From: a virus
Lineage: Duplodnaviria; Heunggongvirae; Uroviricota; Caudoviricetes
DNA: 64,000 nucleotides
Direction: 5' to 3' (one strand)
IMG/VR virus record: IMGVR_UViG_3300018080_000113
Coordinates: 64,097-128,096 of that record
The position numbers were made by a program, and so were the translations under genes. Shown here one piece after another: positions 31,323 through 61,016 of the stretch (positions are counted from its first letter, which is position 1; every line of letters begins with the position of its first letter). Under the pieces are notes generated by a model. The model saw nothing but the letters and a program-made list of their open reading frames with translations. It ran no database searches and had not been told where the DNA came from.

Positions 31323-32699
31323 ATGAAATTACTTATTGTCTTGATCGGATTGTTCTTGATCATTGGATTTGCGGTATTGAAGTTCGTTATCATGCCGCTG
31401 CAAAAGAAGAAACTTAGTTGGAAAACATGGGCTGCAGGTACATGTGCAGGTCTTATCTCGTTGGTTCTTAGTGGCTCATTTTTCTATGCCGAACCAGGAT
31501 ACAGTTATCTAGTTCAGTACCCAACAGGTACTCAAATTGCAGTGACAACACCAGGTTATCATATGTATTGGTACGGTACTGTTTTGGACTTTAAGAAAGT
31601 TGTAACGGTTCGGCTTACCAATGAAAAGGATAATGATTCAGAAACTGCAACAGTCAATGATAACAGTGTAGTTGTTCGGTTTAATGATGCTGTTGTAGCA
31701 CAGATTAGTTCAAGTACTAGGTTTAGGATTCCTGAGGACCCTGCTTTGTTTAAGAAACTTGCTGTTGACTACAGGTCATTGAATAATTTGGTTCAGAGTT
31801 CATTGGTTCCAGTAACGAAAGAAGTTATTCGAAATTCAGCACGTGAGTTGTCGGCACAAGACTATGTAACAGGGCAAGGCGGTCAATTTGAACAGAATGT
31901 TCTTGATCAACTTGAGAATGGTATTGTTGTTTTGCGCATTGAAGATGAGAAGGTTCCAATTAAGGTCACTGATGCTGATGTGCCTCGTGATGTACAACTT
32001 GAAGCAGAAAATATTAAAGCTGCCATTGTACAGAAAAATACTGATCGTGGTGTAGATGAATCTAGCAGGACTTATCGTCGAGTAATTAGAGTAAAGAATG
32101 CTGACGGTTCGCTGAAACGTAAGAAGCATCCTTTGGTTCAGTATGGCATTCAAGTAACTCAATCTACTATCGAAGGAGTTGTTCCTGAGAAGAAGTTCCA
32201 AGAGATGTTGGCACACCAACGAGACGCAGCAGCACGTTCAGCAGTTGCAAGGCAAGAAGCCAAACAAGCTGAATATGAGAAACAAAAGGTTATTGCTCGT
32301 GGTGAGACTGAGAAAGCTCGTGTAAAGATGGAGCAAGAGAAAAATCAGGTTGAGAAGCTTGTGTCAGCTGAGACTCAGAAGAAGCAAGAAGAAATTCTGC
32401 TTGATCAAGCTCGTATCAATAAAGAGAGAGTTGAAGTTGAGGCCAAGGCATTGTTGACAATGGCAACTGCCGAAGCAGATGCACGTAAGGCAAAGATGCT
32501 TGCGGACGGTGCTCTTGAACAAAAACTTGATAGTTGGGTCAAGATTAATCAAGCATGGGCAGCAGCTGCCGCAAACCATCAGATGGTTCCAACCACAGTT
32601 ATTGGTGGCGATGGTGACAATCCAAGTTCTAATGATTTCATTAACTTGATGACTGCAATGTCTGCACAACAGTTGAATCTTAAACCTGTTGTGAAGTAA
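31323..32699 (+). CDS. SPFH/band-7 (HflC/prohibitin-like) membrane protein
   Basis: N-terminal TM helix, an SPFH-like core, then a long Ala/Glu/Lys/Gln coiled-coil tail (QEAKQAEYEKQKVIARGETEKARV...). Confidence 0.55.
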   Translation: MKLLIVLIGLFLIIGFAVLKFVIMPLQKKKLSWKTWAAGTCAGLISLVLSGSFFYAEPGYSYLVQYPTGTQIAVTTPGYHMYWYGTVLDFKKVVTVRLTNEKDNDSETATVNDNSVVVRFNDAVVAQISSSTRFRIPEDPALFKKLAVDYRSLNNLVQSSLVPVTKEVIRNSARELSAQDYVTGQGGQFEQNVLDQLENGIVVLRIEDEKVPIKVTDADVPRDVQLEAENIKAAIVQKNTDRGVDESSRTYRRVIRVKNADGSLKRKKHPLVQYGIQVTQSTIEGVVPEKKFQEMLAHQRDAAARSAVARQEAKQAEYEKQKVIARGETEKARVKMEQEKNQVEKLVSAETQKKQEEILLDQARINKERVEVEAKALLTMATAEADARKAKMLADGALEQKLDSWVKINQAWAAAAANHQMVPTTVIGGDGDNPSSNDFINLMTAMSAQQLNLKPVVK

Positions 32700-32966: not shown

Positions 32967-33339
32967 GGGTCTGACACGGTTTAGACTTTATTGTGACGGG
33001 TGACAATGCATGTCTCGGGGTGGGTATCACCGAGTTAAAAAGATAACCAAAACAGTAATTGGCGAAGATTACTACCCAATGCAGGCTGCTGCTTAAGCAC
33101 CTGCCGTCAACGCTAGCAAGTGTTACATAACTAGTTGAGGCGTCATTTTATGTAATTGCTCTCAAGGAGTTACCGGATGTACTTGAGAAAAGACTAAATA
33201 TCCTGTCCCTAGAATATGATTGTTTTGTTTGTTTTATCAATTATATGAGAGGGTGGCTCGGTAAAGAAAACATTCTAAACATGTGAATGATTTGCATTTA
33301 GATCAATGAAGGACCTCGGTTCGACTCCGAGCAGATCCA
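32967..33339 (+). ncRNA. ssrA: tmRNA (SsrA), one-piece; predicted tag GEDYYPMQAAA-stop
   Basis: 5' GGGTCTG pairs with 3' CAGATCC, giving a G3:U70 alanine identity pair. The 3' end is GGAC + T-arm (CTCGG TTCGACT CCGAG) + acceptor + discriminator A. GTGACGGG lies near the 5' end. An A-rich run precedes the tag frame 33061-33096, which ends GCT GCT GCT TAA. Confidence 0.7.
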
Positions 33340-33523
33340 AAATCAATGTTTTGTATTAGTTTCCAGTTTCTCTATAAGAACTGGTGGTGGAGGCGATGGG
33401 AAACCTGAGCCCTTGTCGTGAACTGGGTGCGACATAAAACAATACGGTGCGAAACCAGAGGCGAACGTCTTAATCCTCGACAGTAAAATCAGGCGTGACT
33501 ACTAGGAGAGACTAGTTCTTTAT

Positions 33524-33624
33524 ATCCAAGTAGCTCAATTGTCCCGGAATACGGATTTGGCAGAGCAACAGCAGCCTAAAAATGGCTGTTGTATGGGTTA
33601 CAGGTTCAAGTCCTGTCTTGGATA
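33524..33624 (+). ncRNA. extended tRNA-like RNA (101 nt), unresolved
   Basis: Acceptor ATCCAAG/CTTGGAT. D-arm GCTC...GAGC with a 17-nt D-loop insertion. 9-bp anticodon-like stem. T-arm ACAGG TTCAAGT CCTGT. Confidence 0.35.
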
Positions 33625-33841
33625 CGATGTCATACTCTAGTATGCTGGAGACTCTTGATAAATACGCATACTTTCTCATGATTGCTTGGTGAAGCAACTT
33701 AGACATAAAGAAGCAGGACCTATACAAGCCACTACTTATAAAAAGCGACTGAGGACCAGTAGATTTTGTCAGTGGGTTCAGACAAAGTTGGCTAACCACC
33801 TTCTAGCTTAAGCTTCTTTATGTCTGTGAGATTTTAATTTA

Positions 33842-34013
33842 GTCAGAGTAGTGGAATGGTATACATGGCGAGTTAGCTACTCGTGAGCGGAACCAACTAG
33901 TCATTATTAAAGTTGTTTATATTATTGTATGTGCATGCTAGCTAGACACATACAACTTTTAAAATACATTGATTAGGAAGCTAACGTTGCAGGTTCGAAT
34001 CCTGCCTCTGACA
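33842..34013 (+). ncRNA. 172-nt tRNA-like RNA (class II-type D-arm), paralogue of the 38381 locus
   Basis: Acceptor GTCAGAG/CTCTGAC. D-arm GTGGAATGGTA. T-arm GCAGG TTCGAAT CCTGC. About 100 nt of internal insert. Confidence 0.4.
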
Positions 34014-34026
34014 CAAAGGAGAGAAC

Positions 34027-34401
34027 ATGTGGTGTGAAGTATACTTTAAGGTGATAGTAGCAGGAGGTAGAGACTTTAAGAATTATAACCTTTTAGAAAA
34101 GAAACTTGATGTGTTATTGTCCAACAAGGTGTCAGATCATACTATTGTTATTGTGAGTGGCGGTGCGAATGGTGCCGATAAGCTTGGGGAAAGATATGCC
34201 AAAAAGAGGAACTATAAGGTAGATAAGTTTCCAGCTGATTGGGATAAATATGGAAAACGTGCTGGGTATCTTAGAAATGAAGAAATGGCTAAGCATGGTG
34301 ATGTTCTTGTAGCATTTTGGGATGGCGTGTCTCGTGGAACTGGCCACATGATTAACATTATGAAAAGGCTTAATAAGCCTGTAAAGATTGTAAGATATTG
34401 A
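34027..34401 (+). CDS. DUF2493-like SLOG-family (DprA/LOG-like Rossmann) protein
   Basis: Pattern VIVAGGRDF ... IVSGGANGADKLGERYA ... PADWDKYGKRAGYLRN ... VAFWDG.SRGT. Confidence 0.5.
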   Translation: MWCEVYFKVIVAGGRDFKNYNLLEKKLDVLLSNKVSDHTIVIVSGGANGADKLGERYAKKRNYKVDKFPADWDKYGKRAGYLRNEEMAKHGDVLVAFWDGVSRGTGHMINIMKRLNKPVKIVRY

Positions 34402-34402
34402 T

Positions 34403-35113
34403 ATGACATTTGAAATTGGACAAGAAGTAAAAACAACAGGCATTGGTGGCATATTCCCCAACTATAAGGCTTGGGCAGAAAACTTTGGGCTTAAAAATTA
34501 TCGCCCAAACAAATATCCTAATCAGGCTAATGTAGTTGTGATAGCAACTGGTAAACATTTAAAAGAAGATAAGTACGGAACTATTTATGGCATTACTCAA
34601 AATGGAATCGATTATATTATAGATGGTCGCTTTCTTCGAGCATTGACTGAAGAAGAAATGCTTGTCAGTACAAAAATAACATTACCTTCTCCAAATCCTT
34701 CTTGTCCTTCTACAAAAATTGATTCATCTCTTTGGTTTAAAAAGTCTATCTGTCATGCTATGACATTTGAGTTTCCTAATGGAGATGTTATTAGTGTGCC
34801 TGGTCCAAAAGAGGAAATTAGAGAAGAATATAAAGTTGAGAAACTAGAATACAGAGACCGTACTGATTCTTTTGTTTTGTTTGATTATTTTATGCCGCGC
34901 GCACAGATGATGAAGCTATCTAATGGTGAAACTCTAAGGTTTTTAAATATACAAGCACGACAGATTATTAAAGAATATAGAGTAAGAATTAATTTAGAAA
35001 CTCCTCGTATTCTTTCATATACTGTCTACAGAGTGACTGTCCTTCGACAAGAAAACAATAAAGAAAACTCATATAAAACTAGTTTTCCAGTACTAAAAGA
35101 ATTTCTTGGATAA
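34403..35113 (+). CDS. hypothetical protein
   Basis: 236-aa ORF. Confidence 0.5.
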   Translation: MTFEIGQEVKTTGIGGIFPNYKAWAENFGLKNYRPNKYPNQANVVVIATGKHLKEDKYGTIYGITQNGIDYIIDGRFLRALTEEEMLVSTKITLPSPNPSCPSTKIDSSLWFKKSICHAMTFEFPNGDVISVPGPKEEIREEYKVEKLEYRDRTDSFVLFDYFMPRAQMMKLSNGETLRFLNIQARQIIKEYRVRINLETPRILSYTVYRVTVLRQENNKENSYKTSFPVLKEFLG

Positions 35114-35504
35114 AGGAGAAAAAACAATGATAGGAACATTATTTTTGATCGCACTAGTAATTGTGATAACTATTGCAGTAGCAGTAAGAACAAAGACAAC
35201 AGAATATAGTGGAATTAGAGGAATTTGCGAGATTGCTATTCTACTGGGAGGCATAGTTTTAACAGTTATGATTATCATGATTCCATTAATGAGATGCGAG
35301 AGCGATCAAGACATTGTAGGCTTTAAAGAAATACGCAGAACAATCAACGAAGCAAGACTGAATTCTACTTATGAAATAGAAGGCAAAGGACTTGCTATTC
35401 TTATTGCAGAACAAAATGGAATGCTTGCAAGGGCAAAAGAAGCAAACAGAACATGGGATCTGTGGTGTTCAGATGAAGTTGACAATATTCAACCTTTGAA
35501 ATGA
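35106..35504 (+). CDS. membrane protein
   Basis: 132-aa ORF with two TM helices. Confidence 0.45.
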   Translation: MDKGEKTMIGTLFLIALVIVITIAVAVRTKTTEYSGIRGICEIAILLGGIVLTVMIIMIPLMRCESDQDIVGFKEIRRTINEARLNSTYEIEGKGLAILIAEQNGMLARAKEANRTWDLWCSDEVDNIQPLK

Positions 35505-35631
35505 GGTAGCAGTATGGACAAAGTAATCTGCGAAGAGTGCAAGTACGTATATATTGGAGACTGCTACAAATTCATCAGAAAGATAGAGGAACCGGGGGAG
35601 GTAAGCTGATGGAATTTTTGAGGAGAACAAA

Positions 35632-35958
35632 ATGATTTATGTGTTATTGATAATTTGGTTTGTTTGTATATTTATTATGATTCAAAACTATTTTGTTTCT
35701 ACAATTGAAAGAAAATGGATAGAGTGTATTCTAGATCTTAATTTAGAAATAATTGATAAGTGTTTCGAAAAAGAACTTTATCCACATAGAATATTTGGTT
35801 CAAATTGGTCAAATGACAATCATAAAATGATGCCTAGCTCTAGGCGTATGTTCTTTTTGCCAAACTATTGGTTTAAAACAAGAATAGAAGATACCAAAGA
35901 TTTTCAAGAATTTGAGAGACAGGCCAAAGTTATCCTTGATACAATAGATGAAATATAA
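35632..35958 (+). CDS. hypothetical protein with N-terminal TM helix
   Basis: 108-aa ORF. Confidence 0.45.
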   Translation: MIYVLLIIWFVCIFIMIQNYFVSTIERKWIECILDLNLEIIDKCFEKELYPHRIFGSNWSNDNHKMMPSSRRMFFLPNYWFKTRIEDTKDFQEFERQAKVILDTIDEI

Positions 35959-35983
35959 AACAACCAACAGCAGGAGGGTGTCG

Positions 35984-38011
35984 ATGAAAAGAATTATTGT
36001 GTTTCTAGTTTTAATGACAATGCCAACAATTGTGTTTGCGCAGCAAGATCCTGATGACGATGGAATTGTAACAGAAGTATGTACTCCTGTAGACAACTGT
36101 CCAGAGATTGCTAACGCAGAACAAGAAGATTGGGATTCTGACGGTGTAGGAGATGCTTGTGCAGATGTGGATGATGATGGAATTTTCGACGATGTAGACA
36201 ACTGTCTTGAGACTCCTAACATGACTCAATCAGATTGTGATTTAGATGGTATTGGAGATGAGTGCGATAGCACTCCAGGTTGTGATACTGAAACTGAAGA
36301 TACTGATGTAGATACAGATACAGAAACGCCTGTAGGAGACTGCACAACAGTAGACAGTAATGTCTTTGAGCCTATTACAGATAATGTCAGAGATCATATA
36401 CTCTCAATCATCAATAATCCTGATTTTGATAGAGATCTTAACGCTTTCATGACGACTGGAGATTCTCTTTCAGAAGGTGGCGGGGAATATGCCGGGTTCC
36501 TCGGCAATTGTTCTTTTCCTCATTGGCCAATAACTAATGGAATTCCAGACGAGCTGCAAACGTGGGACAAAGCAAAAGATTTGAGCTGTTTTCCAGATCT
36601 TGTAAATTCTGTGGACTTTTTCAATGAGGGTGTTTTTACAGATGGAGACAACTCATACACTCGTGAGAGTATTGCTGACTATCCGTCAATGACTGCTACA
36701 TGGCCATTGACAGGCGATCCTACATACCTCCAACAAGAGATTGATTATACTAATGCTCAATTTGCATTAGTGACGTTTGGTACCAACAATGCTTCTTTGA
36801 TTGATGTGGGCAACCAAGCTGCTGTGGACGGTGTTGTAGATGACATTATGATATTGTCTGAGGAGCTTATTGCACAGGGTGTTGTTCCCGTATTGATCTC
36901 ATTGCCCCCAAGAGCTGATGGTTATTTTTGGCAGAGTGAAGCTATTTCAGAAACTTTGAGAGAAGCTGCTGCAATCTATGAATTACCTTTTGCAGACTGG
37001 CACATGGCTGCTTTGCCTCTCGATAATTATGGAGCTGGAAGTGATGGCGTACACCCTCTTTCATATACTTATAGCAGGACATGTACATTTGATTCGACTG
37101 CAATGGAAAATGGAATGGTAATGCACAATTATGTAGCATTGCAGGTATTGGACAATGTTTATGAAGCTGTCATTGGTTCTGTGGATGGAGATGCGGATAC
37201 CGATGCAGATGCAGATTCAGATGCGGACAGCGACGTTGATAGTGATACGGATACAGATACGGACACAGACACGGATACGGATACGGATACCGACACAGAC
37301 ACGGACACGGACACGGATAGCGGTTCTGGTGATATTTGTGACCAACCTTGGGAGCCAATGGTAACACTTTCATTTAATGATGGTTGGGGTGGGCATTTTC
37401 ATCTTGCCAGACCTGAAATGAACTCTAGAGGAATGGTTGGAACCTTCTATCCGCCTATTTACAATCTGCTGAAAAACAATTCACCAGCCCTTTTAGTAGA
37501 CGATGATTTGATTACATTGGTAGCTGAGGGGCATGAGATTGGCTCTCATACGTGGTCACACCCATCTGACACTGGAATCAGCGAAGAGGATCTCCATTAC
37601 GAACTGGGAGACTCTAAGAGCTATCTTGAAGATCTGCTGGGGGTGGAGATTGTAAGCTTTAATGCTTCTATGTGGGGAATGTCAGACCTTACAAAGAGCA
37701 TTATTCCAATGTATTATGAGAACAATAGGAATTACAGCACTGCATTGAATTTCCAAAATGGTGATGTTTACGATCTTCATGGAACCATGGTAAGTGCTTC
37801 CAATGAAGTTGAGTTTCTGACTGACAAAGTTGACAATGCGATCAACCAAGAAGGTTGGTTGATTCTGTACTGGCACAATATCACAGCAGGATATACAGGC
37901 TGGACATATGAGATTGATAAGTTTGTTGGCGTTCTCGATCATATTGAAGCCAGTGGTATCAATGTGGTTACCGTCAAAGAGGGCGTTGCTAGAATGAACT
38001 GCCCTGAGTAG
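35984..38011 (+). CDS. secreted multi-domain carbohydrate esterase: signal peptide, thrombospondin type-3-like Ca-binding repeats, SGNH/GDSL hydrolase, (TD)n linker, polysaccharide deacetylase (CE4/NodB)
   Basis: ATG 35984 after AGGAGGGTG (MKRIIVFLVLMTMPTIVFAQQ). Repeats of DNCPxxxNxxQxDxDxDGxGDxCD. GDSLSEGG motif. NodB motifs LSFNDGWGG and GHEIGSHTWSHP. Confidence 0.65.
   Translation: MKRIIVFLVLMTMPTIVFAQQDPDDDGIVTEVCTPVDNCPEIANAEQEDWDSDGVGDACADVDDDGIFDDVDNCLETPNMTQSDCDLDGIGDECDSTPGCDTETEDTDVDTDTETPVGDCTTVDSNVFEPITDNVRDHILSIINNPDFDRDLNAFMTTGDSLSEGGGEYAGFLGNCSFPHWPITNGIPDELQTWDKAKDLSCFPDLVNSVDFFNEGVFTDGDNSYTRESIADYPSMTATWPLTGDPTYLQQEIDYTNAQFALVTFGTNNASLIDVGNQAAVDGVVDDIMILSEELIAQGVVPVLISLPPRADGYFWQSEAISETLREAAAIYELPFADWHMAALPLDNYGAGSDGVHPLSYTYSRTCTFDSTAMENGMVMHNYVALQVLDNVYEAVIGSVDGDADTDADADSDADSDVDSDTDTDTDTDTDTDTDTDTDTDTDTDSGSGDICDQPWEPMVTLSFNDGWGGHFHLARPEMNSRGMVGTFYPPIYNLLKNNSPALLVDDDLITLVAEGHEIGSHTWSHPSDTGISEEDLHYELGDSKSYLEDLLGVEIVSFNASMWGMSDLTKSIIPMYYENNRNYSTALNFQNGDVYDLHGTMVSASNEVEFLTDKVDNAINQEGWLILYWHNITAGYTGWTYEIDKFVGVLDHIEASGINVVTVKEGVARMNCPE
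37189..37322 (+). repeat. Asp-rich hexanucleotide microsatellite (GATACG/GACACA)n encoding (TD/DA/DS)n linker inside the esterase gene
   Basis: About 20 near-perfect 6-nt units seen directly. Confidence 0.8.
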
Positions 38012-38380
38012 TATGCAAAGAATCTGTTAGGAGCTAGGCTTAGAAGCAGCCATGCTTTAAAGAGTTTCAGTTAAGCTAAGGCCTGTTACCCGATACTGTT
38101 GCTACAGTGGGTCTCTCATAAATATGCAGGATAAGAGCTGAAGAGTTATAACTTGTCTCAGTATGGGTGAGGAGAGCAACTACCATATGTTAAGCAGAGA
38201 ATCTGCGGAGTAAATAACTCGATTGAATTTGGCGTGACAGCACACTATCAGATCGGTCCTGAGTATGACCTAATAACTGCTCTGTTTTCCTAGGTGAGGG
38301 ACGCTGAGAACAGAGCTGAGCCTGCGGGCGATGACGCGAATTCGGACGCGAAAGACCCAAGCTGGATGTACCAGACAGGC

Positions 38381-38552
38381 GGGTGGAATGCCCGTTATTT
38401 ATCCAGGTGGCGGAATGGTAGACGCTAAATGGTTAGGACATCCAAATTCATGAGCAACCAATAAATAGGCCGAGTCATGAAGGAGGACCGTCGCAGGGCC
38501 TTGATTAATTACCAAGGTGTCGCTCGAAATGGTCCGTGCAGGTTCGAGTCCT
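38381..38552 (+). ncRNA. 172-nt tRNA-like RNA with class II-type D-arm and an internal Y-RNA-like module (GGCCGAGTCATGAAGG)
   Basis: Acceptor ATCCAGG/CCTGGAT. D-arm GCGGAATGGTAGACGC. T-arm GCAGG TTCGAGT CCTGC. About 80 nt inserted between the D-arm and a CCTTG-ATTAATTAC-CAAGG hairpin. Confidence 0.45.
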
Positions 38553-38748
38553 GCCCTGGATATTATTCTCTAAGATAAGGATTAGATTATGAATATGTTA
38601 TTTTTGGTGCCTACAATTGTAATGGTTATTCTAAAGCTTGCTAGTCTGGTTACGTGGTCGTGGCCTTTTTGTTTATTTCCAGCTATGATTTATATTGTAA
38701 TTATTGCTCTTGTAGTAATATTTGATGGTTCAAACATAGGATAAAGAA

Positions 38749-41517: not shown

Positions 41518-42384
41518 ATGTTTGATAGTCTTGGCGACCGCATGAAGAAATATGAGAAGACTGAAACAGGCAGAAAATTTATGCCTTTGCTTCCTGTAGT
41601 AGCAAGAATAGACGGAAAGGCTTTTCATACTTGGACCAAAGGACTTGATAGACCATTTGATGCTGACATGATTCAAATCATGCAGAATACTACCAAAAAA
41701 CTTGTTGAAGAAACTAGTGCTAAGGTTGGTTATACACAAAGTGACGAGATCTCTCTTGTGTTCTATTCAGATGATATTGAAAGTCAAATATTCTTTGATG
41801 GCAAAATCTTTAAGATGACTAGTGTACTTGCTAGTATGACTACTGCTATTTTCAACGAAAAAATTCTTAGTTTAGCAGGTAATTTGTACAATGATTCTAC
41901 TTGTTACGAAACAGAGACAACAAGAAGACTTAATAAAATAGTTACAAAACCAATGGCATTATTTGATTGTAGAGTGTGGCAAATGCCTACAAAGGAAGAA
42001 GTTTGTAACTATCTAGTTTGGCGCGAGCAAGACGCAGTAAGAAATAGTATTCAATCTGTAGGCCAAGCCAATTTTTCTCAGAAACAATTGCATGGTAAAA
42101 GCCAAAAAGAAATTCAAGAAATGTTGTTTCAAGAAAAAGACATCAACTGGAATGACTGCTTAATAGCTGAGAAGAGAGGAACTTACTTTCAGAAGCGTCA
42201 AGTAGAAAGGATGTTCTCTGTGAATGAACTTACAAAGCTTCCTGAGAAACATGAGGCTAAAAAGAATCCTTATCTTAAAGTTCTTCGAAATGACATTGTT
42301 ACTTTAAACATGCCTAGACTTGCTTCTATTGATAATAGGATAGAGGTTGTTTTTGATGGAGCTGAGCCAGTTATAAAAAGGTAA
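41518..42384 (+). CDS. Thg1-like tRNA-His guanylyltransferase / 3'-5' polymerase (TLP)
   Basis: N-terminal RIDGKAFHTWTK and metal-binding YTQSDEISLVF are the Thg1 hallmark blocks. Confidence 0.65.
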   Translation: MFDSLGDRMKKYEKTETGRKFMPLLPVVARIDGKAFHTWTKGLDRPFDADMIQIMQNTTKKLVEETSAKVGYTQSDEISLVFYSDDIESQIFFDGKIFKMTSVLASMTTAIFNEKILSLAGNLYNDSTCYETETTRRLNKIVTKPMALFDCRVWQMPTKEEVCNYLVWREQDAVRNSIQSVGQANFSQKQLHGKSQKEIQEMLFQEKDINWNDCLIAEKRGTYFQKRQVERMFSVNELTKLPEKHEAKKNPYLKVLRNDIVTLNMPRLASIDNRIEVVFDGAEPVIKR

Positions 42385-43265: not shown

Positions 43266-43493
43266 ATGGGATATTGGCAAAAAGAACCTGATCTTCTATT
43301 TAGAAAAGGCATGGATATGTTTGGCAAGTTTGACTGGGAAAACTATACATACATGGGCAAAGATAAAGAAGATGCTGTTGTGACAGCATTCCTAGATGAC
43401 AATAATCTAGTAGAAATGACAATAACTTCTGCATGTGTTGGATTCTCATATACTTTTCAGAAAAGACCAAGAGTAAAAACCAATGATAATTAA
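43266..43493 (+). CDS. hypothetical protein
   Basis: 75-aa ORF. Confidence 0.45.
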   Translation: MGYWQKEPDLLFRKGMDMFGKFDWENYTYMGKDKEDAVVTAFLDDNNLVEMTITSACVGFSYTFQKRPRVKTNDN

Positions 43494-44679
43494 ATCAATC
43501 TTAGATACAGATTTATATAAACTTACGATGGGCCAAGCTATTGCCCAAAAGTTTCCTCATGCCAAAGCTCAATATAAATTCATTAATCGTGGCGGAACCA
43601 AATTTCTCCGTAGCACTGCAAGAGAGCTTAAGCAAGAAATTCAAAATATGGCAAGTCTTAAGCTTAGTGCAAATGAAAAGGACTGGCTTAGAGCAAACTG
43701 TTCATACTTCAATCCTGTTTATCTAGATTTCTTGGCAGGGTATAAATATGACCCTTCTGAAGTAGATGTTAGATTCTATAGTACATCATCAGAAGACGAT
43801 GGGTCTGATATGGCATTAGGAGATATTGATATTACAATTACAGGGCCTTGGTATCGCACTGTTTATTGGGAAGTTCCATTGATGGCAATTGTCTCTGAGC
43901 TATACAACAGGAACAGTAAACAACCTAGTTATTGTGACATTGAAACTGTTGTAGAGAAAAGCAAAACATTGACTAGCAACGAATGTTTCTTTGCTGACTT
44001 TGGTACGAGAAGAAGATTTAGCCAACAACACCATGACAAAGTAGTAAAAACTTTAGACAAACAGATGGGTACATTTGTCGGTACAAGCAATGTTCATTTG
44101 GCAATGCAATATCAAGTTAAACCAATTGGGACTCAGGCACATGAATGGTTTATGTTCCATGGTGCAAAATATGGTTATCGCGAAGCTAATAGAATAGCAC
44201 TTAAGAACTGGGTTGACGTTTATCATGGTAGTCTTGGTATTGCATTAACAGATACTTTTGGTACTGATGATTTCTTTAAGAGCTTTGGCTCAAAATATTC
44301 AAAACTATTTGATGGCATTCGTCACGATAGTGGCGACTGGAATACATTTGCAAAAACTACTATTGCACATTATTTGAAAAAAAACATTAACCCTAATACT
44401 AAAACGATTGTATTTTCAGATGGTCTTAATGTAAAAAAAGTTCTTGAAATAAATAAAGCTTATGACAGAAGAATCAAATGTTCTTATGGTATTGGCACAA
44501 ACCTTACTAACGATATTAAAGATGGAGCAAAACCACTTAATATGGTTATCAAAATGACAAGCTGTAAGCCTTATGAAGAACATAATTGGTTGCCGGTTGT
44601 TAAGTTGTCTGACGACAAGGGCAAACATACAGGCGCTTCTGAAGAGATTGAATTGTGTAAAAAAACATTGAGGCTATAA
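43483..44679 (+). CDS. pncB: nicotinate phosphoribosyltransferase
   Basis: Blocks match E. coli PncB: ILDTDLYKLTM, GPWYRTVYWEVPLMAIVSE, DFGTRRRFS, GTSN, IGTQAHEWF, GIALTD, RHDSGD, FSDGLN, YGIGT, KLSDDKGK. Confidence 0.85.
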   Translation: MIIKSILDTDLYKLTMGQAIAQKFPHAKAQYKFINRGGTKFLRSTARELKQEIQNMASLKLSANEKDWLRANCSYFNPVYLDFLAGYKYDPSEVDVRFYSTSSEDDGSDMALGDIDITITGPWYRTVYWEVPLMAIVSELYNRNSKQPSYCDIETVVEKSKTLTSNECFFADFGTRRRFSQQHHDKVVKTLDKQMGTFVGTSNVHLAMQYQVKPIGTQAHEWFMFHGAKYGYREANRIALKNWVDVYHGSLGIALTDTFGTDDFFKSFGSKYSKLFDGIRHDSGDWNTFAKTTIAHYLKKNINPNTKTIVFSDGLNVKKVLEINKAYDRRIKCSYGIGTNLTNDIKDGAKPLNMVIKMTSCKPYEEHNWLPVVKLSDDKGKHTGASEEIELCKKTLRL

Positions 44680-44946
44680 ATGAAATCTACTGATATTTTA
44701 ATGAAGTCACCAGGTTATATAGTAACTGGATTTACACGAAACACAAACGCAAGAGGATATAAAGAATTAGAAATAGACGATATTATTCAATTCTCTATTA
44801 GAGTAAGAACAAATTCACGTTATTCTTCAGATGTAATTATATCTTGTCTTAACAAAGGTATTAGTTGGGCAAACAATCAGGGTTTATTTGCATTAAATAT
44901 TGGAATATTGGAACTTAAGGAGATTGATGATGGAATATTGCTATAA
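44680..44946 (+). CDS. hypothetical protein
   Basis: 88-aa ORF between pncB and nadE. Confidence 0.4.
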   Translation: MKSTDILMKSPGYIVTGFTRNTNARGYKELEIDDIIQFSIRVRTNSRYSSDVIISCLNKGISWANNQGLFALNIGILELKEIDDGILL

Positions 44947-45715
44947 GATTGCAGAATGGATTAAAGATTATTTTCAAGAAACAGGGAAAACAAAAGCTAT
45001 TGTTGGTATTTCAGGTGGAATTGATTCAGCAGTTGTGGCTTCTCTTTGTGTAAAAGCTTTAGGCAAAGAAAATGTTCTTGGTGTAATTATTCCTATTGAA
45101 TCATCAATTTATGATGGCTTAGATGCTATGAAAGTAATAGAAAAGCTTGGTATTGATCATATTGAAGTTCATGGTGATTCTCCATTTTATAAAACGTGGC
45201 AAAAGATTATTGATTCTACAATCGGTCTTGCTAGAGAAAATAAACTTATAAAGAATCACAAACTAGTCAAAGGAAATGTTAAAGCACGCATAAGAATGAC
45301 AACTCTATATGCTATTTCTGAAATGACTAACGGGTTGGTTGTTGGCACTACAAACAAGACAGAAGCTCTTATTGGATATGCCACCAAATATGGTGACGGC
45401 GGTGTTGATATTGAACCAATCATGGATTATTACAAAACAGAAGTTTTTGAAATGGCACGTTATCTTGATGTTCCTGTGAGTATTATCAATAAGAAACCAT
45501 CGGCAGGACTGTGGGACGGACAAACTGATGAAGATGAGCTTGGAATGTCATATGCAGAAATTGATATGGCCCTTAAGCTTATCAAAGGCGAACCTTTCTA
45601 TGGCGTACAAAAAACACAGTCTTGGTCTTTGTTTAAAGAAACAGTTGCTAAAGTTGAGAAACTTATCCAAACAACAGAACATAAAAGAAATCTTCCTCCG
45701 TATTATAAGAGGTAA
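44927..45715 (+). CDS. nadE: NH3-dependent NAD+ synthetase
   Basis: PP-loop SGGIDSAV, TTNKTEALIGYATKYGDGGVDIEPI and AGLWDGQTDEDELG. Track start 44900 is TTG; first ATG is 44927 after AAGGAG. Confidence 0.85.
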   Translation: MMEYCYKIAEWIKDYFQETGKTKAIVGISGGIDSAVVASLCVKALGKENVLGVIIPIESSIYDGLDAMKVIEKLGIDHIEVHGDSPFYKTWQKIIDSTIGLARENKLIKNHKLVKGNVKARIRMTTLYAISEMTNGLVVGTTNKTEALIGYATKYGDGGVDIEPIMDYYKTEVFEMARYLDVPVSIINKKPSAGLWDGQTDEDELGMSYAEIDMALKLIKGEPFYGVQKTQSWSLFKETVAKVEKLIQTTEHKRNLPPYYKR

Positions 45716-57435: not shown

Positions 57436-57509
57436 GGCCACATAGCCCAATTGGCAGAGGCAAGGGACTTAAAATCCCTAAAGTAAGAGTTCGAATCTCT
57501 TTGTGGCTA
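57436..57509 (+). tRNA. tRNA with anticodon TAA on a short-variable-arm (class I) scaffold
   Basis: Acceptor GGCCACA/TGTGGCT. Anticodon arm AGGGA-CTTAAAA-TCCCT. T-arm AAGAG TTCGAAT CTCTT. Confidence 0.65.
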
Positions 57510-60735: not shown

Positions 60736-60818
60736 GGGAGCGTAGCCGAACTGGTATAGGCACAGGGTTTAGGCCCCTGGGTGGCAACACCGTGAGAGTT
60801 CGAGTCTCTCCGCTCCTA
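60736..60818 (+). tRNA. tRNA-Leu (TAG), class II
   Basis: Acceptor GGGAGCG/CGCTCCT. Anticodon arm CAGGG-TTTAGGC-CCCTG. Variable hairpin GGTG-GCAA-CACC. T-arm GAGAG TTCGAGT CTCTC. Confidence 0.8.
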
Positions 60819-61016
60819 CTAGATAGATTCATAAATAAGGTCAATGCAGAACGCCTGATGCATAAGGTCAATTCTGGGAAGGGATAGACACAACAGCTTG
60901 CACGCTGGGGCAATTCGAAACTGTAAAGCAGCTTCTGGCCAATCTAGCTTTACGTACCTAAAGTGTCGGAATCTATCTTATAAAACCATTTTTCCCAAGT
61001 GGTGAAAATGGTTTTT

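What the first reader, a model, noticed from the sequence alone, without database searches (positions are those of the whole stretch)
33842..38552. Two paralogous 172-nt tRNA-like RNAs with class II-type D-arms and ~100-nt internal inserts
The locus at 33842-34013 and the locus at 38381-38552 are both exactly 172 nt. They share the D-arm G(T/C)GGAATGGTA(T/G)AC and T-arm GCAGG TTCGA(A/G)T CCTGC, and both have large internal inserts. The second contains a Y-like module GGCCGAGTCATGAAGG. The first contains ACTAGTC, which resembles the 3' strand of Y RNA stems. Length identity between diverged paralogues suggests a functional structured RNA rather than decay products. The 33340-34026 region also holds a 101-nt tRNA-like locus (33524) with a 9-bp anticodon-like stem.
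Basis: seen in the sequence. Interest (0 to 1): 0.6.

Follow-up and report, generated by a model that had tools for sequence, protein, structure and literature searches.

The report
Leucine-type tRNA scaffolds carrying large inserts

Summary
Both loci are real tRNA-shaped genes, but the description needs correcting. Locus 1 is 33842-34012 (171 nt, A73 at 34013). Locus 2 is 38401-38561 (161 nt, A73 at 38562), not 38381-38552, so the "identical 172-nt length" is an artefact.

They share only the tRNA frame: a 7-bp acceptor stem, U8, a Leu-type D arm, U48 and the T arm. The ~100-nt inserts are no more alike than shuffled sequence.

Neither insert contains a Ro60-binding Y module by three tests: a structure descriptor, a profile of this phage lineage's own 18 modules, and Rfam YrlA. 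The phage does encode Ro60 (48129-49742). Its Y RNAs sit beside that gene, four of them embedded inside tRNAs, with strong covariation.

Pattern scans found 24 further Leu-type frames with 70-123-nt unrelated inserts in viral contigs and MAGs. Across all 26, U48 is invariant, A73 occurs in 20, and 25 have a perfect acceptor stem. None becomes a canonical tRNA after a single deletion.

Best reading: non-decoding tRNA-scaffold RNAs, released by tRNA processing enzymes, that display a lineage-specific cargo domain. No orthologues of either locus were found, so neither insert has covariation evidence. I rate this a new variant of a known kind, of moderate interest.

The parts
33842..34013 (+). Locus 1: tRNA-shaped RNA gene, 171 nt plus discriminator A
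   Evidence: Acceptor 33842-33848 pairs with 34006-34012 (7/7). The strict scanner finds it; coordinates. There is no Rfam tRNA hit and no ARAGORN call.
33851..33866 (+). Locus 1 D arm, Leu type (GUGG AAUGGUAUAC AU) with G18G19, A14 and A15
   Evidence: Sequence. It matches the locus 2 D arm at 12 of 16 positions, with a compensatory 11-24 pair.
33868..33884 (+). Locus 1 hairpin at the canonical anticodon-arm position: stem GCGAG/CUCGU, loop UUAGCUA (U33 present, position 37 is U)
   Evidence: Folds alone at -6.3 kcal/mol, z=-2.75. Position 37 is not a purine and the 'anticodon' AGC does not fit a Leu-type body.
33885..33988 (+). Locus 1 insert in the variable-arm position (104 nt, AU-rich). 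It contains a long irregular hairpin, 33897-33976, closed by CUAGUCA/UGAUUAG. U48 is at 33988.
   Evidence: Folds. The folding energy is not better than shuffles (z=-0.51). There is no repeat elsewhere in the window.
33989..34005 (+). Locus 1 T arm GCAGG UUCGAAU CCUGC
38401..38562 (+). Locus 2: tRNA-shaped RNA gene, 161 nt plus discriminator A
   Evidence: Rfam tRNA 31.1 bits (gathering score 29), E=1.8e-4. The model skips its 17 anticodon-arm positions over an 88-nt insert and adds 21 nt of insertion in the variable region. Acceptor 38401-38407 pairs with 38555-38561, 7/7.
38410..38425 (+). Locus 2 D arm GCGG AAUGGUAGAC GC (typical bacterial tRNA-Leu D arm)
38427..38443 (+). Locus 2 remnant of an anticodon arm: AAAUG GUUAGGA CAUCC. 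The loop fits Leu(UAG) with U33 and G37, but the stem has only 3 pairs plus two A.C mismatches.
   Evidence: Sequence. It does not fold on its own, 0 kcal/mol.
38447..38481 (+).
   Evidence: Folds. GGCCGAG fits GNCGA but has no pairing partner for a bulged helix and gives no profile hit.
38485..38535 (+). Locus 2 insert, hairpin 2: outer stem GGACC/GGUCC, internal loop with GCUCGAAAU, inner stem GCCUUG/CAAGGU. U48 is at 38537.
   Evidence: Folds. The whole insert has z=-2.13; 7 of 200 shuffles fold as well.
38538..38554 (+). Locus 2 T arm GCAGG UUCGAGU CCUGC
33524..33624 (+). 101-nt tRNA-like RNA with a hairpin insert in the D loop and a 9-bp anticodon-like stem (loop UAAAAAU, no U33)
   Evidence: Rfam tRNA 39.5 bits. 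MFE -38 kcal/mol, z=-4.49.

Best explanation
Each locus encodes a non-decoding, tRNA-shaped RNA built on a class-II, leucine-type tRNA frame. The frame comprises a 7-bp acceptor stem, U8, a Leu-type D arm with G18G19, an A15/U48 pair, a canonical T arm and A73, with no encoded CCA. About 100 nt of lineage-specific sequence sit between the anticodon-arm position and U48.

The two are independent members of a widespread set of phage 'Leu-type tRNA scaffolds with a cargo domain' that I found no description of. They do not share a functional insert, and they are not Y RNAs.

**Proposed mechanism (inferred, not shown)**
1. The genes lie inside long noncoding or polycistronic stretches, with no promoter or terminator of their own.
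2. Host RNase P, 3' trimming and CCA addition recognise the acceptor/T/D elbow and cut the RNA out.
3. This cutting also sets the 3' end of the structured RNA upstream. Upstream of locus 2 that RNA contains the 23S GTPase-centre look-alike.
4. It also sets the 5' end of the mRNA downstream. The ORFs start 14 nt after locus 1's discriminator and 27 nt after locus 2's.
5. The released L-shaped RNA is stable and displays the insert as a binding or decoy domain.
6. The frame keeps the features I recall as LeuRS identity elements (A73, A14, A15-U48, D-loop geometry; the anticodon is not among them). The RNAs may therefore be leucylated without being able to decode.
For: **Frame under selection**
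- The two acceptor stems differ completely yet both pair 7/7.
- The D stem carries a compensatory change.
- The T arm is identical at 16 of 17 positions.
- Locus 2 passes the Rfam tRNA threshold with the whole anticodon branch treated as an insertion.

**A family exists**
- Pattern scans of IMG/VR and GTDB genomes gave 24 further distinct single-acceptor elements, with 70-123 nt between the D and T arms.
- Over all 26 elements, the base before the T stem is U in 26 of 26, although the search pattern did not require it.
- The discriminator is A in 20 of 26. There are 23 different acceptor stems, and 25 of 26 pair perfectly.
- Rfam tRNA aligns five of them (35.6-47.2 bits) with the anticodon arm largely skipped or interrupted by long inserts.

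**Not decoders**
- No element, loci 1 and 2 included, yields a canonical anticodon arm after any single contiguous deletion. The test required a 5-bp stem, a 7-nt loop, U33 and R37.

**Inserts are lineage-specific**
- No shared k-mer exceeds shuffles. There is no Y module, no shared neighbouring gene and no Ro60 nearby.

**Context**
- No sigma-70-like promoter or terminator signal stands out around either locus.
- In this phage lineage, tRNAs carrying extra RNA modules are common: the four tRNAs with Y modules and the D-loop insert of 33524-33624.
Against: - No orthologue of either locus was found in a related phage. The neighbouring ORF 34403-35113 is an orphan, and contigs of relatives are short or not syntenic. 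Neither insert therefore has covariation evidence.
- The locus 1 insert folds no better than shuffled sequence (z=-0.51). The locus 2 insert is only modestly better (z=-2.13).
- Locus 1 does have a stable hairpin exactly where an anticodon arm belongs, and locus 2 has a Leu(UAG)-like loop there. A decoding role is therefore not excluded.
- The 26-element set was collected with one exact D-arm and T-arm pattern. It could be a convergent collection of independently interrupted tRNA-Leu genes rather than one family.
- Expression, processing and charging are all untested.
Confidence: 0.5

Rival explanations
1. They are working tRNAs. One version is decoders with a giant variable arm. The other is pre-tRNAs whose insert is an intron, removed by a nuclease and resealed by the phage's own RNA-repair enzymes (RNA ligase 52168-53478, Thg1-like 41518-42384).
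For: - Locus 1 has a stable 5-bp/7-nt hairpin at the canonical anticodon position.
- The locus 2 loop GUUAGGA has U33, UAG and G37, as in tRNA-Leu(UAG).
- The insert lies where class-II tRNAs carry their long arm.
- In the same window, removing the ~52-nt module from tRNAs 50374-50496 and 50505-50630 restores Asn(GUU) and Ile(UAU) anticodon arms.
- Lak megaphages were reported to have tRNAs with 'enigmatic introns' (PMC6784885).
- An RNA ligase and a Thg1-like enzyme are encoded nearby.
Against: - The locus 2 stem has only 3 pairs and does not fold.
- The locus 1 loop has U at position 37, and its anticodon AGC is at odds with a Leu-type body.
- The strict single-deletion test finds no canonical tRNA for either locus or for any of the other 24 elements.
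- The phage already has tRNA-Leu(UAG) at 60736-60819 and tRNA-Leu(UAA) at 57436-57509.
- No splicing endonuclease was identified.
Confidence: 0.15
2. One reading: they are Y-RNA-like (YrlA-type) partners of the phage Ro60 protein. The tRNA-like part would serve as the effector module, and GGCCGAG / ACUAGUC as the Ro60-binding site.
For: - The phage encodes Ro60 (TROVE 4.8e-45, Ro60 vWA 2.2e-58).
- Bacterial YrlA RNAs are tRNA mimics with a GNCGAA(N)G motif thought to contact Ro60, and helix formation may not be required (PMC4201824).
- GGCCGAG fits GNCGA.
- The loop of locus 2 hairpin 1 (GCAACCAAUAAAUA-GGCCGAG) loosely resembles the J1 + motif part of this phage's own modules (UAACAAUAACUU...GGGUCGAA). 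This is my reading.
Against: - Neither locus has a bulged helix.
- The profile of 18 modules gives no hit in either locus, and Rfam YrlA gives none.
- Locus 1 has no CGA motif in a comparable position.
- The loci lie 10-14 kb from Ro60. At least eight clear Y elements cluster within 2 kb of it.
- None of the 24 related scaffolds elsewhere has a Y module or a Ro60 gene nearby.
Confidence: 0.1
3. They are tRNA-Leu pseudogenes broken by insertions of junk or mobile DNA, with no function of their own. At most they would serve as leftover RNase P sites.
For: - The inserts are unrelated to each other.
- The locus 1 insert is AU-rich and folds no better than random.
- No orthologues were found.
- Locus 1 fails Rfam tRNA.
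Against: - Both frames are intact in every tertiary-contact position: U8, A14, A15-U48, G18G19 and the T loop.
- Both have perfect, mutually different acceptor stems.
- Across 26 such elements U48 is invariant, and 25 have perfect acceptor stems. Decay would not preserve this.
- There are no extra copies of either insert in the window, as a mobile element would leave.
Confidence: 0.15

Closest known systems
Phage T4 RNA C and RNA D (species 1 and 2 stable RNAs of the tRNA cluster)
   Same: - They are stable ~120-140-nt RNAs encoded among phage tRNA genes, with no known role (PMC3014915; annotation).
- The 3' part of RNA C has a T arm and an acceptor-like stem. It gives a weak tRNA-Sec-like hit of 17.5 bits.
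- This window comes from a distantly T4-like phage (rIIA; weak, sub-threshold gp30.3 match).
   Different: - No sequence similarity was seen.
- T4 RNA C lacks the Leu-type D arm, and its acceptor-like stem is imperfect.
- The loci here have a complete acceptor/D/T frame.
YrlA / bacterial and phage Y RNAs (Rfam RF02553)
   Same: They are tRNA mimics encoded by genomes that also encode Ro60. The elbow, made of T and D arms, is conserved (PMC4201824).
   Different: - In YrlA the termini lie in the Ro60-binding stem and the acceptor-like stem is closed by a loop.
- Here the termini form the acceptor stem, and no Ro60-binding helix is present.
- This phage's actual Y elements are at 48093-51050.
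tRNAs with 'enigmatic introns' in Lak megaphages (Devoto et al. 2019, PMC6784885)
   Same: They are over-long phage tRNA genes that standard bacterial tRNA finders miss, with conserved inserts of unknown function and unknown removal.
   Different: The Lak cases were read as intron-containing decoders with assignable anticodons. For the two loci here, and for the 24 related scaffolds, no single deletion restores a canonical tRNA.
tmRNA
   Same: It combines a tRNA-like acceptor/T domain with a large non-tRNA domain. It relies on a synthetase (AlaRS) that ignores the anticodon, as LeuRS does (my knowledge of the field).
   Different: - There is no G3.U70 pair.
- A full D arm is present.
- There are no pseudoknot-rich domains or tag reading frame, and no Rfam tmRNA hit.
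- A genuine tmRNA lies at 32967-33342.
mascRNA / MALAT1-type tRNA-like 3' processing signals
   Same: A tRNA-like element directly downstream of a structured noncoding RNA would let RNase P define that RNA's 3' end. This fits locus 2, which follows the GTPase-centre look-alike RNA, and locus 1, which follows the 33699-33828 stem structure.
   Different: This is a eukaryotic system. mascRNA is ~60 nt with no large insert. The resemblance is functional analogy only.

Membership tests
tRNA (Rfam RF00005) | 7-bp acceptor stem with the T arm stacked on it | tested here: met
   Both loci pair 7/7, directly 3' of a 5-bp T stem with loop UUCGARU.
tRNA (Rfam RF00005) | D arm with G18G19, plus U8, A14 and a 15-48 pair | tested here: met
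   GYGG AAUGGUAKAC RY, U8, A14, and A15 with U48 in both loci.
tRNA (Rfam RF00005) | Anticodon arm: 5-bp stem, 7-nt loop, U33, purine 37 | tested here: not met
   Locus 1 has the stem and U33 but U at position 37. Locus 2 has only 3 pairs and is not stable.
tRNA (Rfam RF00005) | Score at or above the curated gathering threshold (29 bits) | tested here: inconclusive
   Locus 2 scores 31.1 bits. Locus 1 has no hit at E<=10. ARAGORN calls neither.
Y RNA / YrlA (RF02553) | Ro60-binding bulged helix (GGUC-C-GA paired with UUGACC) or the GNCGAA(N)G motif at the base of a terminal stem | tested here: not met
   The descriptor finds the helix at 48093, 50299, 50422, 50553 and 50777 but not in either locus. 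Locus 2 has only an unpaired GGCCGAG.
Y RNA / YrlA (RF02553) | Similarity to known Y RNAs by model | tested here: not met
   Rfam YrlA gives no hit at E<=10. The nhmmer profile of 18 lineage-specific modules gives no hit at E<=1000.
Y RNA / YrlA (RF02553) | Encoded adjacent to the Ro60 gene | tested here: not met
   Ro60 is at 48129-49742. The loci lie 14.1 and 9.6 kb upstream of it.
Y RNA / YrlA (RF02553) | Physical binding to Ro60 | not testable with these tools
   Needs RIP or gel-shift.
tRNA gene with a group I intron (bacterial tRNA-Leu type) | Intron of roughly 200 nt or more with a group I catalytic core, inserted in the anticodon loop | tested here: not met
   The inserts are ~100 nt and lie 3' of the anticodon-arm position. 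There is no Rfam group I hit at E<=10.
Intron-containing pre-tRNA (protein-spliced) | Removal of one contiguous segment restores a canonical cloverleaf | tested here: not met
   The strict enumeration of all deletions finds no solution for either locus. The looser ARAGORN enumeration gives many mutually inconsistent calls.
tmRNA | G3.U70 alanine identity, no D stem, pseudoknots and a tag reading frame | tested here: not met
   Position 3 is C paired with G in both loci. A full D stem is present. There is no Rfam tmRNA hit on either locus.
Leu-type tRNA scaffold with cargo domain (set defined here) | Leu-type D arm, T arm GCAGGUUCGARUCCUGC, 7-bp acceptor stem, U48, and 70-125 nt in place of or after the anticodon arm | tested here: met
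   Both loci fit, and 24 further distinct elements were found. The set was defined by my own search pattern, so membership is partly circular.
Leu-type tRNA scaffold with cargo domain (set defined here) | Aminoacylation by LeuRS | not testable with these tools
   Inferred only, from A73, A14 and A15-U48.

The most novel reading that the evidence does not exclude
The Leu-type frames are genuinely charged by host LeuRS, which does not read the anticodon. They would form a phage-encoded class of aminoacylated, non-decoding tRNA-like RNAs. Possible roles are sponges for LeuRS, EF-Tu or tRNA-targeting defence enzymes, or carriers that bring a cargo domain to the translation apparatus, much as tmRNA exploits AlaRS. 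In this window, locus 2 would work together with the 23S GTPase-centre look-alike encoded just upstream.
Probability: 0.12. Interest if true: 0.85.

Novelty: new variant of a known kind. Interest (0 to 1): 0.5.

Why it matters
Phage tRNA regions have long been known to hold stable RNAs of unknown function; the roles of T4 RNA C and D are still unknown. Over-long phage 'tRNAs' are usually dismissed as intron-containing genes or pseudogenes.

The frame of a leucine tRNA recurs with invariant U48, mostly A73 and perfect but unrelated acceptor stems, around unrelated 70-125-nt inserts, in at least 26 phage and MAG contigs. That pattern points to a general design: a tRNA scaffold that guarantees processing, stability and perhaps charging for an arbitrary RNA domain. 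Biotechnologists use the same trick to express recombinant RNAs, so a natural version would be of practical interest.

The same window also gives a concrete system for studying how Ro60 and Y modules relate to real tRNAs. Y modules sit inside tRNAs, the inverse topology of YrlA. The window also holds a widespread phage look-alike of the ribosomal GTPase-associated centre.

Tried and rejected
1. **Shared insert homology.** Pairwise MAFFT and global/local alignment against 500 shuffles showed none.
2. **Y module in the loci.** The structure descriptor, the nhmmer profile and Rfam YrlA were all negative.
3. **Known ribozyme, riboswitch, group I intron, ROOL or GOLLD in the inserts or flanks.** There were no Rfam hits at E<=10 apart from tRNA, tmRNA and the LSU fragment. 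Five of 16 related loci searched at gathering threshold gave only tRNA hits on their elements.
4. **Orthologues in relatives.**
   - Megablast and blastn against INPHARED found nothing.
   - 68 loci fetched through YspA homologues are not syntenic.
   - Neighbouring ORF 34403-35113 is an orphan.
   - A homologue of the 687-aa neighbour led to a non-syntenic contig.
   - Exact-protein look-ups returned only the same phage, which is 100% identical to ENA ERZ27256796 k141_1934064.
5. **Single-intron hypothesis.** The ARAGORN enumeration was too permissive to be useful. The strict enumeration was negative.
6. **Mobile-element hypothesis.** There are no further copies of either insert in the window.
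7. **A dedicated protein partner in cis.** No gene family recurs next to the 26 elements.
8. **A covarying long-range helix in the L005/L136 pair.** RNAalifold did not support it.
9. **A covariance model of the Y module.** I could not build one because MAFFT mis-registers the variable P1 stem. I used a hand-segmented alignment with hmmbuild instead.

Full report
**1. What is in the sequence**

Locus 1 is as described. It runs 33842-34012, with discriminator A at 34013. Its elements are:
- a perfect 7-bp acceptor stem (GTCAGAG/CTCTGAC);
- U8;
- a D arm GUGG-AAUGGUAUAC-AU;
- a T arm GCAGG-UUCGAAU-CCUGC.

Locus 2 is mis-bounded in the finding. The acceptor strands are 38401-38407 (ATCCAGG) and 38555-38561 (CCTGGAT), with A73 at 38562.

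The true lengths are 171 and 161 nt. The 'exactly 172 nt each' argument therefore falls.

The tRNA finders give mixed results:
- ARAGORN calls neither locus.
- Rfam tRNA gives locus 2 31.1 bits against a threshold of 29. It skips the 17 anticodon-arm positions over an 88-nt insert and adds 21 nt of insertion in the variable region.
- Rfam tRNA gives locus 1 no hit at E<=10.
- The 101-nt locus 33524-33624 scores 39.5 bits. It has a hairpin insert in the D loop and a 9-bp anticodon-like stem.

**2. Anatomy**

In both loci the extra sequence lies 3' of the position where the anticodon arm belongs.
- Locus 1 has a stable hairpin there: GCGAG-UUAGCUA-CUCGU, -6.3 kcal/mol, z=-2.75. Its loop has U at position 37, and its 'anticodon' AGC does not fit a Leu-type body.
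- Locus 2 has AAAUG-GUUAGGA-CAUCC. The loop looks like Leu(UAG), but the stem has three pairs plus two A.C mismatches and does not fold by itself.

Then follow 104 nt in locus 1 and 94 nt in locus 2, each ending in U48 just before the T stem.
- The locus 1 insert is AU-rich and folds no better than shuffles (z=-0.51).
- The locus 2 insert forms two hairpins and is modestly better than shuffles (z=-2.13).

**3. Are the two loci paralogues with a shared functional insert?**

Only the frame is shared.
- The D arms match at 12 of 16 positions. One compensatory pair is present: U11-A24 in locus 1 against C11-G24 in locus 2.
- The T arms match at 16 of 17 positions.
- The acceptor stems are unrelated in sequence but both pair perfectly.

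The inserts are not related. In a global alignment, 491 of 500 shuffles score at least as high as the real pair. In a local alignment, 384 of 500 do.

**4. The Y-RNA idea**

The window does encode a Ro60 orthologue at 48129-49742 (TROVE 4.8e-45; Ro60 vWA 2.2e-58).

Immediately downstream lie four ~125-nt tRNAs: 50245-50369, 50374-50496, 50505-50630 and 50733-50857. Each carries a ~50-nt module with this architecture:
- an outer stem P1;
- an A/C-rich strand ending in CUU;
- a short hairpin whose 3' strand runs into C-GA(A);
- a tail GGUUAUC.

The hairpin plus UU/GA reproduces the conserved Ro60-binding bulged helix of Y RNAs (GGUC-C-GA paired with UUGACC). It also reproduces the YrlA motif GNCGAA(N)G (PMC4201824).

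The same arrangement, Ro60 followed by one to four such tRNAs, occurs in six distinct related contigs found through Ro60 homologues of 53-76% identity. The second-ranked 76% homologue, P0003, was not fetched.

On 19 modules, 8 of the 10 tested pairs show changes on both sides. 98.4% of cells are paired, and 0 of 500 shuffles reach the observed covariation score. One caveat applies: the helices were chosen by complementarity.

Free-standing Y RNAs in the usual topology lie at about 49784-49849, 49877-49934, 49942-50127 and 50861-51050. A Ro-type hairpin sits at 48093-48111, just before the Ro60 start codon.

Against this background, loci 1 and 2 are negative on every test:
- no bulged helix;
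- no hit with an nhmmer profile of 18 modules, even at E<=1000 in a 1.3-kb target;
- no Rfam YrlA hit.

The GGCCGAG of locus 2 sits unpaired in a 21-nt loop. The ACUAGUC of locus 1 pairs with UGAUUAG without a bulge or a CGA motif.

**5. A wider family**

I scanned for the exact pattern GGAATGGTAKAC-N-GCAGGTTCGARTCCTGC, with gaps of 70-100 or 100-130 nt in IMG/VR and 100-130 nt in GTDB genomes. This returned 35 distinct hits. Of these, 26, including the two window loci, have a single acceptor stem flanking the whole unit. The other nine are two adjacent tRNAs.

Over the 26:
- The base before the T stem is U in all 26. The pattern did not impose this.
- The discriminator is A in 20.
- There are 23 different acceptor stems, and 25 elements pair 7/7.
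- Only locus 1 has a proper hairpin at the anticodon position.
- No element becomes a canonical tRNA after any single deletion under strict rules.
- The inserts share no k-mer beyond chance, no Y module, no Ro60 gene nearby and no recurring neighbouring gene.
- Rfam aligns several of them as tRNA, with the anticodon arm skipped or interrupted by long inserts.

I found no description of such a set in the searchable literature. The nearest reports are:
- the 'enigmatic introns' of Lak megaphage tRNAs (PMC6784885);
- the function-less T4 RNAs C and D (PMC3014915). The 3' part of T4 RNA C is weakly tRNA-like.

**6. Most likely mechanism**

*Shown:* an intact, selected Leu-type tRNA frame; no canonical decoding arm; unrelated inserts; no own promoter or terminator signal. 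Each locus is also immediately followed by an ORF: the ATG is at 34027, 14 nt after A73 of locus 1, and at 38589, 27 nt after A73 of locus 2.

*Inferred:*
- The frame makes the RNA a substrate for RNase P, 3' trimming and CCA addition.
- Excision punctuates the long transcript and yields a stable L-shaped RNA that displays the insert.
- LeuRS does not use the anticodon (established knowledge of tRNA identity, recalled rather than tested here), and A73, A14 and A15-U48 are kept. Leucylation is therefore possible.

What the inserts bind is unknown.

**7. Rivals**

| Reading | Confidence | Main obstacle |
|---|---|---|
| Functional decoder or spliced pre-tRNA | 0.15 | Favoured by the anticodon-position hairpins and by the restorable Asn and Ile tRNAs in the same window, but fails the deletion test, and both Leu isoacceptors already exist |
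| Y-RNA-like Ro60 partner | 0.10 | Fails all membership tests that could be run |
| Pseudogene | 0.15 | Hard to reconcile with the frame conservation across 26 elements |

**8. Limits**

No orthologue of either locus was found. The phage is known only from one ENA/JGI/Logan assembly, and contigs of its relatives are short. Neither insert therefore has comparative support, and there are no expression data. The 26-element set depends on one exact search pattern.

**9. Verdict**

The loci are best filed as non-decoding tRNA-scaffold RNAs, a new variant of the known kind 'stable tRNA-like RNAs of phage tRNA regions'. Interest is moderate.

The side observations may be the more valuable leads: Y modules inside tRNAs next to Ro60, and a GTPase-centre look-alike shared by 75 viral contigs.

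Noticed in passing
window 48129-49742 and 50245-50857; relatives L082 5143-6455, L084 2974-3096, L086 5116-5241, L087 3704-4300, L088 12455-13042, L089 7716-8325: A Ro60 (TROVE + vWA) gene is followed by four ~125-nt tRNAs, each interrupted by a ~50-nt module that carries the Ro60-binding bulged helix of Y RNAs. This is the inverse topology of YrlA. The module sits at different tRNA positions: the D stem, the anticodon stem at 28/29, and the anticodon loop. Removing it restores Asn(GUU) and Ile(UAU) arms in two units. The arrangement is conserved in six distinct related contigs, with 8 of 10 tested pairs covarying.
   Followed up: partly
window ~49784-49849, ~49877-49934, ~49942-50127, ~50861-51050; hairpin 48093-48111: Four free-standing Y-RNA-like genes in the usual topology flank the tRNA-Y chimeras. 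Each has a terminal stem GGGC-C-GA paired with UU-GCCC, or a variant of it. A Ro-type hairpin (UUGCCC-AAUU-UGGGC-C-GA) lies between tRNA-Gln and the Ro60 start codon and could be an autoregulatory site.
   Followed up: partly
window 38027-38079 (core 38037-38063); 75 IMG/VR loci L139-L213: A 53-nt look-alike of 23S rRNA helices 43/44 (the GTPase-associated centre, the L11 site) lies 320 nt upstream of locus 2. In the core, 25 of 27 bases match E. coli. The exact core occurs in 75 viral contigs (53 distinct contexts, only one of them a real 23S gene). It is usually embedded in tRNA arrays, with a tRNA-like unit starting within 1.5 kb downstream in 33 of 53 contexts, most often at 120-400 nt. 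No Rfam family other than LSU rRNA matches it, and I found no description of it.
   Followed up: partly
window 32967-33342: A phage-encoded tmRNA (Rfam 97.3 bits; tag peptide GEDYYPMQAAA) opens a ~1.06-kb gene-free stretch (32967-34026). That stretch also holds the 101-nt tRNA-like RNA and locus 1.
   Followed up: no
window 33699-33828: A 14-bp perfect inverted repeat (33701-33714 with 33812-33825) encloses ~97 nt. It ends 13 nt before locus 1 and is probably another structured RNA. The stretch 33343-33523 is also gene-free and unexplained.
   Followed up: no
window 51054-51138 and 57436-57509: Two tRNAs have unusual architecture: a tRNA-Thr(UGU) of 85 nt with a long, class-II-like variable arm, and a tRNA-Leu(UAA) of only 74 nt without one.
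   Followed up: no
window 41518-42384, 43483-45715, 51254-51919, 52168-53478, 55409-56197: RNA-repair and NAD-salvage genes surround the Ro60/Y cluster: a Thg1-like enzyme, NAPRTase, NAD synthase, a VWA protein, an Rnl-type RNA ligase and a metallophosphoesterase. The order Ro60, RNAs, VWA, RNA ligase is conserved in L082/L083.
   Followed up: no
L088 6264-8900 (NCBI GCA_024449685.1, JAANST012210380.1): In a related phage contig, an 878-aa protein with a major-vault-protein shoulder domain lies ~1.1 kb upstream of the Ro60 gene. In the window, a 458-aa SPFH/Band-7 protein (31323-32699) lies just upstream of the tmRNA/tRNA-like cluster.
   Followed up: no
L123 11687-11809; L110 element: Some Leu-type scaffolds elsewhere look more intricate. 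In L123 a stretch inserted in the anticodon loop (GGGUGUUAU) is complementary to the long variable arm (AUAACACCC). The L110 insert contains a second T-arm-like hairpin.
   Followed up: no
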